A stretch of 64,000 bases of DNA from Candidatus Woesearchaeota archaeon (GTDB lineage: Archaea > Nanobdellota > Nanobdellia > Pacearchaeales > GW2011-AR1): contig CAZNJU010000001.1 in NCBI GenBank assembly GCA_964573625.1, positions 589,879 through 653,878 of the forward strand, in the 5' to 3' direction. Position numbers and translations under genes: made by a program. Numbering within the stretch: the first letter of the stretch is position 1; every line of letters begins with the position of its first letter. Below, piece by piece: positions 57,482-60,520 of the stretch. Under the pieces are notes generated by a model that did not search any database, had not been told where the DNA came from, and was given only the letters and a program-made list of their open reading frames with translations.

Positions 57482-58219
57482 ATGGCCTTAAACCTCAATG
57501 ATCAGGCAGTACGATTGCCGTATGAAGAATTCTACGGAGAAGTACGAGCACAAATGCCAAAGCTCTTGGCGGACAAGCGTATGCCTCTTTCGGTAGCCGG
57601 TCTTATGGAACGACGCCTCAATTCTACTCAAACCGCTGAATGGAGAGATAATTATTTTGGCATGGGCGATGCCATTGCGTACAAAGGAGATGCTTTCAAA
57701 GTTGTTGCTGATGCACCTCTCTTGAGAGAACTAACTGCAAACACTCGGTTGAAAGCAGGCGCGGTACTGCTTGCCGATGGATTATATGAAACATTTGACG
57801 GCACTGAATTCTCACGTAAGGATTTGTCTAAAGTAATGGGTCGAGATTTGACTGCTGCCGATGCTAAGAAACATCCCGTCTGGCAAGCGCTTGCTCGCGG
57901 TGATCAAGGATTACTTGATGCTTATACGGATATGACGTTTGCTGATACAAAAGCTCGTTTTGGTTACACTGAAAACATGGGTGTTTATCTCGATGACTCG
58001 AAAGAACCACATGCACGGGCTTGGTTTGTCGGCAGGGCGTACTACAGGTCGCAGGCCAGTGGCGACTGTGATCTTGACTACAGGAGCGGTCGCTTGGTCG
58101 GGGTAGCGCCGGAGGCGCTCAGTGCGCCGGGTAAGGCTATTGTAATGCCTTCCCTTGAAACTGCATTGACTGTTGTGAACCAACATATAGGAAACAAATT
58201 GAAATTGCAACAGCAATAA
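57482..58219 (+). CDS. DGR target (variable) protein, probably CLec-fold
   Basis: Contains the VR (RAWFVGRAYYRSQASGDCDLDYRSGRLVGV) followed by 37 more codons. The fold is inferred from other DGR targets. Confidence 0.9.
   Translation: MALNLNDQAVRLPYEEFYGEVRAQMPKLLADKRMPLSVAGLMERRLNSTQTAEWRDNYFGMGDAIAYKGDAFKVVADAPLLRELTANTRLKAGAVLLADGLYETFDGTEFSRKDLSKVMGRDLTAADAKKHPVWQALARGDQGLLDAYTDMTFADTKARFGYTENMGVYLDDSKEPHARAWFVGRAYYRSQASGDCDLDYRSGRLVGVAPEALSAPGKAIVMPSLETALTVVNQHIGNKLKLQQQ
58017..58107 (+). repeat. DGR variable region (VR)
   Basis: Matches 58943-59032 except 13 substitutions, all at TR adenines, and one 1-nt indel. Confidence 0.95.
58105..58119 (+). promoter_or_regulatory. DGR target-recognition hairpin AGCGCC-GGA-GGCGCT
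   Basis: Perfect 6-bp stem with a GRA loop immediately after the VR. Confidence 0.8.
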
Positions 58220-58738
58220 ATGAATTCTAACGAAGAAGCACTTAGATTATTTTATCTAGACCATCTCTTTACTAAGTCAACAAAAAATGTAGAACCTATC
58301 TCTTTGGAATTCCTTTCTTCTACTTTCAATGAACTATCTGAAAGAGTTTTTTCTATGTCTTTTGAAGACATCTTAAAACAGATTCGTCTTTCTGAGACTT
58401 TAACTTTTTGGTCGTGTGCTTATTTGAACAAAAATTGTACTCAGATTGAACTTCCTATAGAAAAAGCATGTGCGGATGATAGACATATAGCCATAGATAG
58501 CCATCTTGTTTCTCAAGGGACTCTTTTATCAAGCCTCTTGGAAAAAGCATATCTCTTATCTGAATTGCGTGAAAGGATTGATTTTCCTAAAAAGTTTTCT
58601 CCATTTTTCTTAGATGAAGCATTCCCCATAGTACGAAAGTACGGAGAGTTATATGAGGTTTTAATGGGTAATCATCGAGTCATGGCTGCAATTGAACTTG
58701 GTCTAGAAAAAATTAAAGCGATATGTTTAGAAGAATAA
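58220..58738 (+). CDS. ParB/Srx-like domain protein within the DGR
   Basis: C-terminal PIVRKYGELYEVLMGNHRVMAAIELG motif; abuts the target stop codon. Confidence 0.65.
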   Translation: MNSNEEALRLFYLDHLFTKSTKNVEPISLEFLSSTFNELSERVFSMSFEDILKQIRLSETLTFWSCAYLNKNCTQIELPIEKACADDRHIAIDSHLVSQGTLLSSLLEKAYLLSELRERIDFPKKFSPFFLDEAFPIVRKYGELYEVLMGNHRVMAAIELGLEKIKAICLEE

Positions 58739-58812: not shown

Positions 58813-59034
58813 CTATGCAACAAGGATGCATAGAGTATCTGGGGCTACACGTCCTTTCATGACGGCGCTTCGGCGTCATAAAATACAGCTGCAACAGAAA
58901 TGAAGCGGCAGTGAAGGGGTATCCATGAAAGGGCTATTCCTGGGGCTTGGTTTGTCAACAGGGCGAACAACAGGTCGCAGGCCAATGGCAACAATAATCT
59001 TGACAACAGGAACGGTCGCTTGGTCGAATAGCCC
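58813..59034 (+). ncRNA. Putative DGR template RNA: structured leader plus TR
   Basis: Stems at 58813-58819/58827-58833, 58851-58861/58924-58934 and 58931-58939/59026-59034; a cUUCGg hairpin near 58870. Boundaries are approximate. Confidence 0.65.
58943..59032 (+). repeat. DGR template repeat (TR)
   Basis: AAC/AAT-rich copy of the VR. Confidence 0.95.
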
Positions 59035-60520
59035 ATGATGCTGCTAGGATATCATACTATGTACGAACAACTGTGCTCAGAAGAAAATCTTCTTAGTGCA
59101 TTTTACAAAGCGCGGAAAGGCAAGACACAGCGACATTATGTGCAAGTATTTGAAAAAGAGCTAGATAAAAATCTAAAGCAGCTAGAACAGGAGTTACGTA
59201 CTCAGACCTATCAACCTAAGCCCCTAACAACATTTGTTATTCGTGATCCAAAGACGCGTAAAATTTCTAAATCTCGATTCAGAGATCGAGTAGTACATCA
59301 CGCACTCATTAATGTTATCGGCCCCGTTCTACAAAAACGCTTTATTTATGATTCACATGCGAATCAGGTTGGTAAAGGAACGTTAAAAGCAGTTCAACGT
59401 TTCGAGCTCTTTAAACGAAAAGTGTCTCGTAATAATACTCGTCCCTGTTACGTGCTTAAATCAGACATTAGGCATTATTTTGAAGAAGTCGATCATGCTA
59501 TTCTTCTCAAGCTTATTAGTAAATATGTTCGAGACGAGCGCGTGATGTGGCTCATTCAACAGATTCTCGCTAACAATGTACATCTTTCCTTTAATGCGAA
59601 CTTTAGGACGCAGAGAGAGAGAGAGTACTAACAAGGGAATGCCCTTAGGCAATCATACTTCACAGTTCTTTGCGAATGTCTATCTGAATGAACTAGATCA
59701 ATTTGCAAAACACGTTCTTAAAGCACCGTATTACTTACGATACGTTGACGATTTTGCCATTTTATCTAACTCGTATTCAATGCTTCTACAGTACAAGGAA
59801 CGCATCAATGTGTTTCTAAAAGAGCATCTTAAACTTGAATTGCATCCTCAAAAATCTCATATTCTCTCGTTACATTCGGGCGTTTCTTTTCTTGGGTATC
59901 GCATTTTTCCGCATCACAAACTATTACGAAAACGTAACGCGCGTGCGTTTGAACGAAAGATGGGAAAATTGAGAGTTTTATACCACGAAAAGCAAGTTTC
60001 ACGAGATCAAGTGGTTGATCGACTTCAAGGATGGTTGGCTTATGCCGAACACGCCGATACGTACACTTATCGAAAAGAAATATTACGAAACTTTAATCGG
60101 TTTTTTCCCTTTAAAATAGAAAAAGCACTGTTGTCCAAAAGAGCGAGAAATTTCTATAAAAAAGTAGCTGCAAGTAAAATACAAGGAAGCGTTCAAAAAA
60201 CGCTCGACCTAGCAAGAAAAAAGATGTCAGTCACAGAAATAGCTACGCTTCGTAAAATAAAAGAAGGAACGGTCTGGGAACATTATGCAGAATTAATTGA
60301 ATACGGATGGTTGTCTATTTGGTCTATTCTTCCGCGTAAAACTATTGTAACGGTTTTACCCTATATACGAAACTCAAGTGATACTCTCACAACAATAAAG
60401 AGTCGGTTAAAAGTAAGCGGCATATCTTATGATAGTATTATGTGCGTTCGCGCCCATATACGATACAAGGAAAAAATAAAACGATGGTCAAGACGATATC
60501 ACAAAAATTATTTGGGATAA
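59035..60520 (+). CDS. DGR reverse transcriptase, split by a frameshift at (AG)7, with a C-terminal HTH
   Basis: Frame 1: RDPKTRKI, FRDRVVHHA, KSDIRHYF. Frame 2: GMPLGNHTSQFFANVYL, RYVDDF, FLGY. (AG)8 gives one 495-aa ORF. Confidence 0.93.
59612..59625 (+). repeat. (AG)7 dinucleotide tract at the RT frameshift
   Basis: Direct read CAGAGAGAGAGAGAGTACTAA. Confidence 0.92.

What the first reader, a model, noticed from the sequence alone, without database searches (positions are those of the whole stretch)
60150..60520. DGR RT carries a C-terminal RecQ-type helix-turn-helix extension
Seen: after the thumb region the RT continues ~110 aa: SVQKTLDLARKKMSVTEIATLRKIKEGTVWEHYAELIEYG... Knowledge: this pattern resembles HTH_40, found at the C-terminus of RecQ/RecS-associated proteins; model DGR RTs have no such domain. 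Inference: a built-in DNA-binding module that could recognise the VR hairpin, autoregulate, or compensate for the absent Avd.
Basis: partly seen in the sequence, partly recalled or inferred. Interest (0 to 1): 0.65.

Follow-up and report, generated by a model that had tools for sequence, protein, structure and literature searches.

The report
DGR reverse transcriptase with fused HTH_40 domain
The reverse transcriptase of this tiny archaeon's targeted-mutation element carries a real, conserved, strongly basic helix-turn-helix domain of the kind normally attached to DNA helicases, an undescribed but widespread variant that probably helps the enzyme hold its nucleic-acid substrate.

Summary
Residues 205-292 of the ORF at 59576-60520 (nt 60188-60451) match Pfam HTH_40 end to end (E 2.5e-13, 50.5 bits, cut-off 27). 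They follow the thumb of a genuine DGR reverse transcriptase; the model Bordetella enzyme (328 aa) stops at the thumb.

The fusion is not a one-off:
- All 120 best database relatives carry RVT_1 plus HTH_40.
- About 33 of 401 genomes sampled from the phylum have it; 119 of 401 have a DGR RT of this family.
- On an RT-only tree the HTH_40 forms make one cluster, which fits a single gain.

The domain is basic (median pI 9.75). It is modelled as a separate all-helical fold on a flexible linker. Elsewhere it sits beside RQC and HRDC in RecQ, Pif1 and ExoVII proteins, or is encoded just upstream of an SF2 helicase.

The "compensates for missing Avd" idea is not supported. Avd is absent from sister RTs without HTH_40 too, although the same scan finds Avd readily in viral DGRs. 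HTH_40 loci do have the target hairpin directly abutting the IMH (15 of 16, against 2 of 27). That fits target-site binding but is confounded by shared ancestry.

I found no paper describing this fusion. It is a new variant of a known kind, of moderate interest. In this genome the RT is out of frame at an (AG)7 repeat.

The parts
57482..58219 (+). DGR target gene (245 aa) with the variable repeat near its 3' end
   Evidence: ORF. It holds the VR. Homologous targets occur in 31 related loci (cluster 0).
58017..58100 (+). Variable repeat (VR)
   Evidence: 84-nt direct repeat with the TR, 87% identical. All 11 mismatches fall at TR adenines. A relaxed scan gives an 86-nt run with 13 A-site differences.
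58100..58119 (+). IMH G-run (GGGGT, 58100-58104) directly followed by a GC hairpin, AGCGCC-GGA-GGCGCT (58105-58119)
   Evidence: Sequence read. The TR side reads GAATAGCC at the same place. The same abutting arrangement is in 15 of 16 HTH_40-type loci.
58220..58738 (+). 172-aa ORF in the VR-TR spacer, function unknown, not Avd
   Evidence: Only a weak ParB_N hit (E 0.019, below cut-off). No Pfam family at E<=0.01. Related loci have no ORF in this spacer.
58943..59026 (+). Template repeat (TR), ending 8 nt before the RT start codon
59035..59631 (+). RT N-terminal half (198 aa, fingers and part of the palm), frame 1
   Evidence: RVT_1 profile positions 8-107. The RT HMM built here covers positions 1-176.
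59612..59625 (+). (AG)7 run where the RT reading frame breaks
   Evidence: Sequence. The two RT ORFs overlap here in different frames. This is the subject of earlier finding e1-5102154.
59576..60124 (+). RT C-terminal half (palm with LGNHTSQ and YVDD motifs, then thumb), frame 2
   Evidence: RVT_1 profile positions 111-205. The RT HMM built here covers positions 177-346, ending at residue 183 of the ORF.
60125..60187 (+). Basic linker (SKRARNFYKKVAASKIQG...) between thumb and HTH_40
   Evidence: Net charge +6 in the window copy. The equivalent segment of the full-length model has pLDDT below 50, so it is predicted to be flexible.
60188..60451 (+). HTH_40 domain (PF14493)
   Evidence: E 2.5e-13, 50.5 bits, profile 1-89 of 89. 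AF2 model pLDDT 88.4, all-alpha. Invariant T, H, L, I and near-invariant W in the recognition-helix motif TVWxH.
60452..60520 (+). Short basic C-terminal helix and stop codon; the ~85-aa Cys-rich tail seen in most relatives is missing here
   Evidence: Alignments. A tail HMM hits 17 of 25 HTH_40-type loci but not the window.

Best explanation
The region is the C-terminal accessory domain of a distinct subfamily of DPANN-archaeal DGR reverse transcriptases.

What is shown:
- The RT core is a bona fide DGR RT.
- After the thumb comes a flexible, lysine/arginine-rich linker and then an independently folding, all-helical HTH_40 domain. Its first half is a LuxR/GerE-like helix-turn-helix.
- The extension is strongly basic.
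- It was acquired once and has been kept across a deep clade.
- It comes from a module that elsewhere serves helicases and nucleases, either fused or as a small protein encoded just upstream of an SF2 helicase.

What is inferred:
- It acts in cis as a nucleic-acid-binding tether for mutagenic retrohoming.
- Its most likely job is to hold the RT-TR-RNA complex on the DNA target site (the IMH and the abutting GC hairpin at the VR end). That would match the position of the DNA-binding D domain that follows the thumb in group II intron RTs.
- It is an add-on to an already Avd-independent DGR lineage, not a replacement for Avd.

In this genome the RT is out of frame at the (AG)7 run, so the fusion protein is made only after slippage or repeat-length change.
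For: Domain identity:
- Pfam HTH_40 above cut-off and full length.
- phmmer with the 122-aa piece reaches Pif1-HTH_40 and RecQ-RQC-HTH_40-HRDC proteins.
- The best structural neighbour is the C-terminal domain of a RecQ (3IUO, prob 0.99, TM ~0.5). The HTH core overlays LuxR/GerE domains at 0.8-1.5 A.

DGR identity:
- TR/VR mismatches fall only at adenines.
- bRT is the top structural match.

Conservation and spread:
- All 120 best relatives carry PF00078 plus PF14493.
- 24 of the 80 best species-representative loci carry the fusion.
- About 33 of 401 phylum genomes carry it, against 119 of 401 with any RT of the family.
- The tree needs 2 state changes where shuffling gives 19.8.
- Invariant recognition-helix residues.

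Physical properties:
- pI median 9.75 and net charge median +10.
- Linker pLDDT below 50 while the domain scores 83-94.

Module origin:
- The HTH_40 plus Cys-tail unit exists as a stand-alone gene overlapping the start of an SF2 helicase gene in two genomes.
- Also found: HTH_40-HRDC-ExoVII and RQC-HTH_40.

Target-site link:
- The hairpin lies 0-4 nt after GGGGT, mostly with a GGA loop, in 15 of 16 HTH_40 loci.
- It lies 7-38 nt after it, mostly with a GAA loop, in 25 of 27 plain loci.

Not Avd compensation.
Against: - No binding experiment or complex model exists; nucleic-acid binding is inferred from charge, fold and domain company.
- The hairpin-geometry correlation rests on essentially one evolutionary event, because the HTH_40 forms are one clade. 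It may simply be inherited together with the domain.
- The hairpin also lies inside the target's coding sequence (GVAPEA), which constrains it on its own account.
- Plain RTs of sister clades work on similar targets with no such domain, so it is not essential to the basic mechanism.
- The one experimentally studied protein I recall as HTH_40-bearing (YpbB) is known for protein contacts with RecS and SSB, not for DNA binding.
- Foldseek E-values for the domain are weak (0.3 at best).
- The window copy departs from consensus at 5 of 22 well-conserved columns, and its RT is frameshifted.
Confidence: 0.55

Rival explanations
1. Avd-like cofactor in cis. The basic extension binds the RT's own TR RNA or the primer-template and so licenses cDNA priming. 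That is the job of the separate Avd pentamer in the Bordetella element.
For: The extension's pI (median 9.75) matches that reported for Avd, 9.5 +/- 0.7 (Wu 2018). No Avd is found in the genome. The domain is tethered next to the thumb.
Against: Sister RTs without the domain also lack Avd, while the same scan finds Avd in viral DGRs. The clade therefore primes without either. There is no fold or sequence relation to the four-helix-bundle Avd.
Confidence: 0.15
2. Protein adaptor. HTH_40 recruits the RT to a partner such as SSB/RPA, a helicase or the replisome, coupling cDNA integration to replication or repair. This would resemble YpbB bridging RecS to SSB.
For: The YpbB/RecS complex binds the SSB C-terminus, but RecS alone does not (PMC3000357). 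The stand-alone HTH_40 plus tail gene overlaps the start of an SF2 helicase gene in two DPANN genomes, the same layout as ypbB-recS. The domain is attached to many DNA-transaction enzymes.
Against: That YpbB contains HTH_40 is my recollection and was not tested here. The strong positive charge and the LuxR-like HTH with an invariant recognition helix fit nucleic-acid contact better. No conserved partner gene lies beside the RT fusions.
Confidence: 0.15
3. Transcriptional autoregulator. The HTH binds an operator in the cassette and tunes RT or TR expression.
For: The N-terminal half resembles LuxR/GerE/NarL DNA-binding domains.
Against: HTH_40 is otherwise found on helicases, nucleases and their partners, not on regulators. 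No conserved palindromic operator was noticed upstream. A catalytic enzyme tethered to its own operator would be unusual. No specific test was run.
Confidence: 0.07
4. In this particular genome the whole RT, extension included, is an inactive remnant and the domain does nothing.
For: The RT is split by a frameshift at (AG)7. The window's HTH_40 deviates at 5 of 22 well-conserved columns, at the high end of the family range.
Against: Both halves are otherwise intact, with no stops and with the catalytic motifs present. Deviation counts of 5-7 also occur in intact relatives. Many relatives are split at the same place, which an earlier follow-up read as a reversible switch. VR differs from TR only at adenines, so the element has been active.
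Confidence: 0.08

Closest known systems
Bordetella phage BPP-1 DGR (bRT-Avd-TR RNA; PDB 8UB7 and related)
   Same: The RT core and thumb have the same fold (TM 0.85 on the target, 30% identity). Also shared: adenine-specific TR-to-VR mutagenesis, and an IMH followed by a GC hairpin at the VR end.
   Different: bRT ends at the thumb and needs the separate Avd pentamer. Here there is no Avd anywhere in the genome. The RT carries a ~130-aa basic HTH_40 extension, and the TR abuts the RT start codon.
HRDC-type DGRs (architecture C of Wu et al. 2018, e.g. Treponema denticola)
   Same: A domain from the C-terminal region of RecQ helicases has been recruited to a DGR. HTH_40 and HRDC sit side by side in RecQ-like and ExoVII proteins.
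   Different: HRDC is a separate gene with near-neutral pI (6.9), and about half of those DGRs also have avd. HTH_40 here is fused to the RT, is strongly basic and never occurs with avd.
Plain nanoarchaeal/DPANN DGRs (Paul et al. 2015; e.g. SCGC AAA011-G17 = locus L032)
   Same: Same RT family, same layout (target, ORF-free spacer, TR, RT), same lack of a recognisable Avd, and the same trinucleotide-loop hairpin.
   Different: Their RTs stop after the thumb. Their hairpin lies 7-15 nt from the IMH, with a GAA loop.
D (DNA-binding) domain of group II intron reverse transcriptases (GsI-IIC RT, LtrA)
   Same: Both are a target-DNA-binding segment placed directly after the thumb of a related RT; this rests on established knowledge of those enzymes. 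Group II RTs are the next-best structural matches to the RT core.
   Different: There is no sequence or fold homology. The structural alignment beyond the thumb is poor (rmsd 9-15 A). The comparison is an analogy of position only.
HTH_40-bearing helicase proteins (Pif1-HTH_40, RecQ-RQC-HTH_40-HRDC, YpbB-like RQC-HTH_40)
   Same: Same Pfam family, reached directly by phmmer from the window's domain.
   Different: The catalytic partner is a helicase or nuclease, not a reverse transcriptase.

Membership tests
Diversity-generating retroelement (DGR) | TR/VR repeat pair whose differences fall only at TR adenines | tested here: met
   84-nt repeat with 11 mismatches, all at TR adenines. 13 of 13 in the 86-nt run.
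Diversity-generating retroelement (DGR) | RT of the DGR clade (motif 4 [ILV]GxxxSQ, YxDD, bRT-like fold) | tested here: met
   LGNHTSQ and YVDD are in the ORF. RVT_1 is found in both halves. A model of the closest intact relative matches bRT 8UB7 best, E 1e-18.
Diversity-generating retroelement (DGR) | Intact RT reading frame | tested here: not met
   The RT is split into 59035-59631 and 59576-60520 at the (AG)7 run. The element is a DGR with its RT currently out of frame.
Diversity-generating retroelement (DGR) | Accessory protein Avd (present in 74% of DGRs, not universal) | tested here: not met
   PF05635 best E 0.185 and PF22296 no hit in the whole genome. The flanking ORFs give none.
Diversity-generating retroelement (DGR) | IMH/IMH* pair and GC-rich hairpin downstream of the VR | tested here: met
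   VR reads GGGGTAGC where the TR reads GAATAGCC. The hairpin AGCGCC-GGA-GGCGCT is at 58105-58119.
Pfam HTH_40 (PF14493) | Score above the gathering cut-off over the full profile | tested here: met
   50.5 bits against a cut-off of 27, profile 1-89 of 89. 50.8 bits in the genome scan.
Pfam HTH_40 (PF14493) | Reciprocal similarity to helicase-associated members | tested here: met
   phmmer hits at E about 1e-4 on 717-993-aa proteins, which Pfam then labels PIF1...HTH_40 or DEAD-Helicase_C-RQC-HTH_40-HRDC.
Pfam HTH_40 (PF14493) | Helical fold with a helix-turn-helix, like solved members | tested here: inconclusive
   The model is confident (pLDDT 88) and all-alpha. The best PDB neighbour is the RecQ C-terminal domain 3IUO (prob 0.99), but TM is only ~0.5 and E 0.32. 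I could not confirm by sequence that 3IUO is HTH_40.
Pfam HTH_40 (PF14493) | DNA binding | not testable with these tools
   Only indirect evidence: pI 9.4-10.3 and a LuxR-like recognition helix.
Avd functional substitute | Presence tracks the absence of Avd among related DGRs | tested here: not met
   Avd families were not among those hit by two or more neighbour ORFs, either in 25 HTH_40 loci or in about 42 plain loci. The same scan found Avd in 14 and 13 ORFs from 24 viral loci.

The most novel reading that the evidence does not exclude
HTH_40 is the first dedicated target-DNA recognition domain of a DGR reverse transcriptase. It reads the IMH-abutting GCGCC-GGA-GGCGC hairpin, so the RT subfamily and its target sites form a private pair. 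That would explain how HTH_40-type and plain DGRs can coexist in one small genome without cross-talk. Genomes such as G167, G224, G296, G140 and G324 carry both forms. It would also give a handle on the unsolved step of how DGR cDNA finds and replaces the VR.
Probability: 0.2. Interest if true: 0.75.

Novelty: new variant of a known kind. Interest (0 to 1): 0.5.

Why it matters
Two steps of DGR mutagenesis are poorly understood: how the cDNA is brought to the variable repeat, and how the many Avd-less DGRs work at all.

Wu et al. 2018 noted that about 20% of DGR RTs have unexplained extensions of up to ~150 aa after the thumb. This work gives one large class of those extensions a domain identity, an origin in a helicase-partner module, a defined clade and a candidate ligand.

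The fusion is frequent in DPANN archaea, at about 8% of sampled genomes. Those organisms are among the heaviest users of DGRs. If the domain binds the target hairpin, it offers a direct biochemical route into target recognition, and a way to design orthogonal DGR-based diversification tools.

Tried and rejected
1. A word-indexed protein search restricted to the HTH_40 region found only the window itself and one relative. The domain is too divergent for shared 5-mers, so this gave no prevalence figure.

2. All-against-all BLASTP and phmmer clustering of neighbour ORFs recovered no Avd-like or other conserved accessory family. It found only target families, antisense artefacts and NTP_transf_2/HEPN pairs.

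3. I asked whether plain RT loci carry HTH_40 as a separate gene. None does within +/-6 kb.

4. I asked whether non-RT HTH_40 genes in DPANN lie near RTs. None does within +/-5 kb.

5. L047 is the one plain RT that groups with the HTH_40 cluster. It has no remnant of the domain in any frame.

6. A sequence search of the PDB found no solved close homologue, only LuxR-type HTH hits at E >= 7e-4. The RecQ-type HTH_40 protein P0168 did not hit 3IUO by sequence.

7. Among viral contigs, none of the 80 best RT relatives has HTH_40.

8. In the literature, no paper in the library links HTH_40 or PF14493 with DGRs. Paul et al. 2017 was not held, so I cannot exclude a mention there.

9. I rejected reading the 172-aa ORF as Avd. 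It has no Avd match and only a sub-threshold ParB_N hit.

Full report
**1. What is in the window**

The region 57.4-60.6 kb is a DGR cassette.
- A 245-aa target gene (57482-58219) carries the VR at 58017-58100.
- A TR lies at 58943-59026. The two repeats are 87% identical, and all 11 mismatches are at TR adenines.
- The VR ends in GGGGT (58100-58104), where the TR reads GAATAGCC. A GC hairpin, AGCGCC-GGA-GGCGCT, follows directly at 58105-58119.
- The RT starts 8 nt after the TR but is split. Its N-terminal half is 59035-59631 (198 aa) and its C-terminal half is 59576-60520 (314 aa). The frames diverge at an (AG)7 run at 59612-59625. An earlier follow-up treated that repeat as a switch, and I did not re-examine it.

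**2. The observation**

- Pfam places RVT_1 on residues 14-110 and HTH_40 (PF14493) on residues 205-292.
- The HTH_40 match scores E 2.5e-13 and 50.5 bits against a cut-off of 27, over the whole 89-position profile.
- An RT HMM built here ends at residue 183 of the ORF. The post-thumb extension is therefore residues 184-314, or nt 60125-60517.
- HTH_40 occurs only once in the 772,791-bp genome, which is 95% complete. That single occurrence is here.

**3. It is a recurrent architecture**
- A search of 5.8 billion proteins gave 5952 relatives. All 120 listed carry PF00078 plus PF14493. The names that sources give them are Woesearchaeota, Pacearchaeota or Nanoarchaeota "helix-turn-helix domain-containing protein".
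- A scan of one genome per prokaryote species returned 80 loci, all from DPANN archaea by record title, some bins mislabelled Methanosarcinales.
- With HMMs built here, 24 of those loci plus the window have the RT fused to HTH_40. The other 56 have an RT that stops within about 25 aa of the thumb, with no HTH_40 anywhere within +/-6 kb.
- In 401 good genomes sampled across the phylum, 119 have an RT of this family. About 33 have the RT-type HTH_40. Several genomes hold both forms.
- None of the 80 best viral-contig relatives has the domain.
- On a tree built from RT columns only, the HTH_40 forms make one cluster: 23 HTH_40 rows plus one plain row, SH-aLRT 90. The tree needs 2 changes of state where shuffled labels need 19.8.

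This fits one ancient gain that was then retained.

**4. The domain itself**
- Twenty-five copies are only about 40% identical to the window. They still keep invariant T, I, T, H, L and I, and a near-invariant W, in the motif QKTL...IKEGTVWxHxxxLIE.
- AlphaFold2 gives a confident all-helical fold of seven helices (pLDDT 88.4).
- In a full-length model of the closest intact relative (L001), the RT core and the domain are confident. The 25-residue stretch between them has pLDDT below 50, so the domain looks tethered.
- The RT core of that model matches the Bordetella bRT best (8UB7, TM 0.85 on the target). bRT has 328 residues and ends at the thumb.
- For the domain alone, the best PDB neighbour is the C-terminal domain of Porphyromonas gingivalis RecQ (3IUO, prob 0.99, TM about 0.5, E 0.32). 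After that come LuxR/GerE/NarL-type HTH domains, which overlay the first 42-46 residues at 0.8-1.5 A. Sequence searches give the same LuxR-type hint.
- The extension is strongly basic. The median pI is 9.75 (range 9.4-10.3) and the median net charge is +10; the window copy has +17. Wu et al. report pI 9.5 for Avd and 6.9 for HRDC.
- The window copy departs from consensus at 5 of 22 well-conserved columns. That is high but within the family range of 0-7.

**5. Where else the domain lives**

phmmer from the window's 122 aa reached proteins that Pfam describes as follows:
- PIF1...HTH_40
- DEAD-Helicase_C-RecQ_Zn-RQC-HTH_40-HRDC
- RQC-HTH_40
- HTH_40-HRDC

Within the same phylum I also found these forms:
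- RQC-HTH_40 proteins of about 228 aa
- an HTH_40-HRDC-OB-ExoVII large-subunit fusion
- a stand-alone HTH_40
- a 207-212-aa protein made of HTH_40 plus a Cys-rich tail

The same ~85-aa tail follows HTH_40 in 17 of the 25 RT fusions, though not in the window's sub-branch. It is homologous between the two contexts (E 4.5e-16 and 3.4e-14). In two genomes the stand-alone gene overlaps the start of an SF2 helicase gene. That layout mirrors ypbB-recS in Bacillus subtilis, where the YpbB/RecS complex binds SSB but RecS alone does not (PMC3000357). That YpbB is an HTH_40 protein is my recollection and was not tested here.

The RT thus seems to have captured a helicase-partner module. HRDC, the neighbour of HTH_40 in RecQ-like proteins, is already a recognised DGR accessory gene.

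**6.
- The genome has no Avd: PF05635 gives best E 0.185 and PF22296 gives nothing.
- The plain sister RTs have none either. In both groups the usual layout is target, then a 250-490-nt spacer with no ORF, then TR, then RT.
- Pfam scans of 79 neighbour ORFs from HTH_40 loci and 140 from plain loci showed no Avd family hit by two or more members.
- The identical procedure on 24 viral DGR loci found bAvd in 14 ORFs and 23S_rRNA_IVP in 13.
- Paul et al. 2015 likewise reported only ORFs of Avd-like size and charge in nanoarchaeal DGRs, not homologues.

Avd-lessness is therefore a property of the whole clade, and the fusion does not correlate with it.

**7. Testing the hairpin idea**

GC hairpins with three-base loops follow the VR in both groups. 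A systematic scan showed a difference between them:

| Loci | Hairpin start after GGGGT | Usual loop |
|---|---|---|
| HTH_40 type | 0-4 nt in 15 of 16 | GGA; consensus GGGGT(A/T)GCGCC-GGA-GGCGC |
| Plain type | 7-38 nt (median 11) in 25 of 27 | GAA or GCA |

A naive Fisher test gives p = 1e-8. The one plain RT that groups with the HTH_40 cluster has the spaced type.

Because the HTH_40 forms are one clade, this is in effect a single evolutionary event. In addition, the hairpin lies in coding sequence. It is a lead, not a demonstration.

**8. Reading**

The best-supported explanation is a cis-acting, tethered, basic nucleic-acid-binding module added to an already Avd-independent DGR RT. The VR-end target site is the most likely ligand. 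[quoted passage not shown] Four rivals remain:
- an Avd-like RNA or primer cofactor
- a protein adaptor to SSB or a helicase
- an autoregulator
- a dead copy in this genome

**9. Novelty**

Wu et al. 2018 recorded extensions of up to ~150 aa on about 20% of DGR RTs and found no motif apart from three weak MutS_I hits. Roux 2021 and the reviews I searched do not mention HTH_40. No paper in the library pairs HTH_40 with DGRs. Paul et al. 2017 was not available. Databases already label these proteins as HTH-containing, so the architecture is visible but undescribed. I class it as a new variant of a known kind, of moderate interest.

Noticed in passing
L002, L005-L012, L015-L019, L021, L023, L024 (RT C-termini); L085:2065-2694(-), L088:1663-2301(-): An ~85-aa Cys-rich tail (WYKR..C.RKCY.N..Q...C..KF......IC.LP) follows HTH_40 in 17 of 25 RT fusions. 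It matches no Pfam family. It is homologous to the tail of stand-alone HTH_40 proteins whose gene overlaps the start of an SF2 helicase gene. The window's sub-branch lacks it.
   Followed up: partly
window 58100-58119; VR ends of L001-L023 versus L025-L079: The position and loop of the VR-downstream hairpin differ by RT subfamily. HTH_40 loci have it abutting GGGGT with a GGA loop. Plain loci have it 7-15 nt away with a GAA or GCA loop. The difference is confounded by phylogeny.
   Followed up: partly
L095:375-2414(-): A DPANN exonuclease VII large subunit carries N-terminal HTH_40 and HRDC domains (HTH_40-HRDC-OB-Exonuc_VII_L).
   Followed up: no
L083, L084, L086, L087, L089-L093: Proteins of about 220-250 aa with RQC plus HTH_40 (YpbB-like) are common in the phylum. 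They are not near any RT.
   Followed up: partly
window 58220-58738: The 172-aa ORF makes this cassette's VR-TR gap 841 nt. In related loci the gap is 234-490 nt and holds no ORF, so the ORF looks like a lineage-specific insertion rather than a standard accessory gene.
   Followed up: partly
G167, G224, G296, G140, G324, G398: Single small genomes carry both an HTH_40-type and a plain DGR RT. G283 carries three HTH_40-type copies.
   Followed up: no
L023 (7497, 8463, 10965, minus strand): Three copies of the same IMH-plus-hairpin site, each with a second hairpin 30 nt on. This implies three target genes for one RT.
   Followed up: no
L006, L010, L012, L026, L027, L036, L037, L042, L045, L046, L058, L060, L063, L064, L078-L080: Many related RT genes, with and without HTH_40, are split into two ORFs at about the same RT position as the window (HMM position ~176-180 or ~125).
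   Followed up: no
neighbour ORFs of L001-L080: Nucleotidyltransferase/HEPN pairs and other toxin-antitoxin genes (PIN, ParE, YoeB, MazE) are frequent beside these DGRs.
   Followed up: no
G221:C43:36835-38263; G322:C52:1844-3258: In two genomes the RT and the HTH_40 part lie adjacent but in separate open frames. This could be a frameshift or a split into two genes.
   Followed up: no
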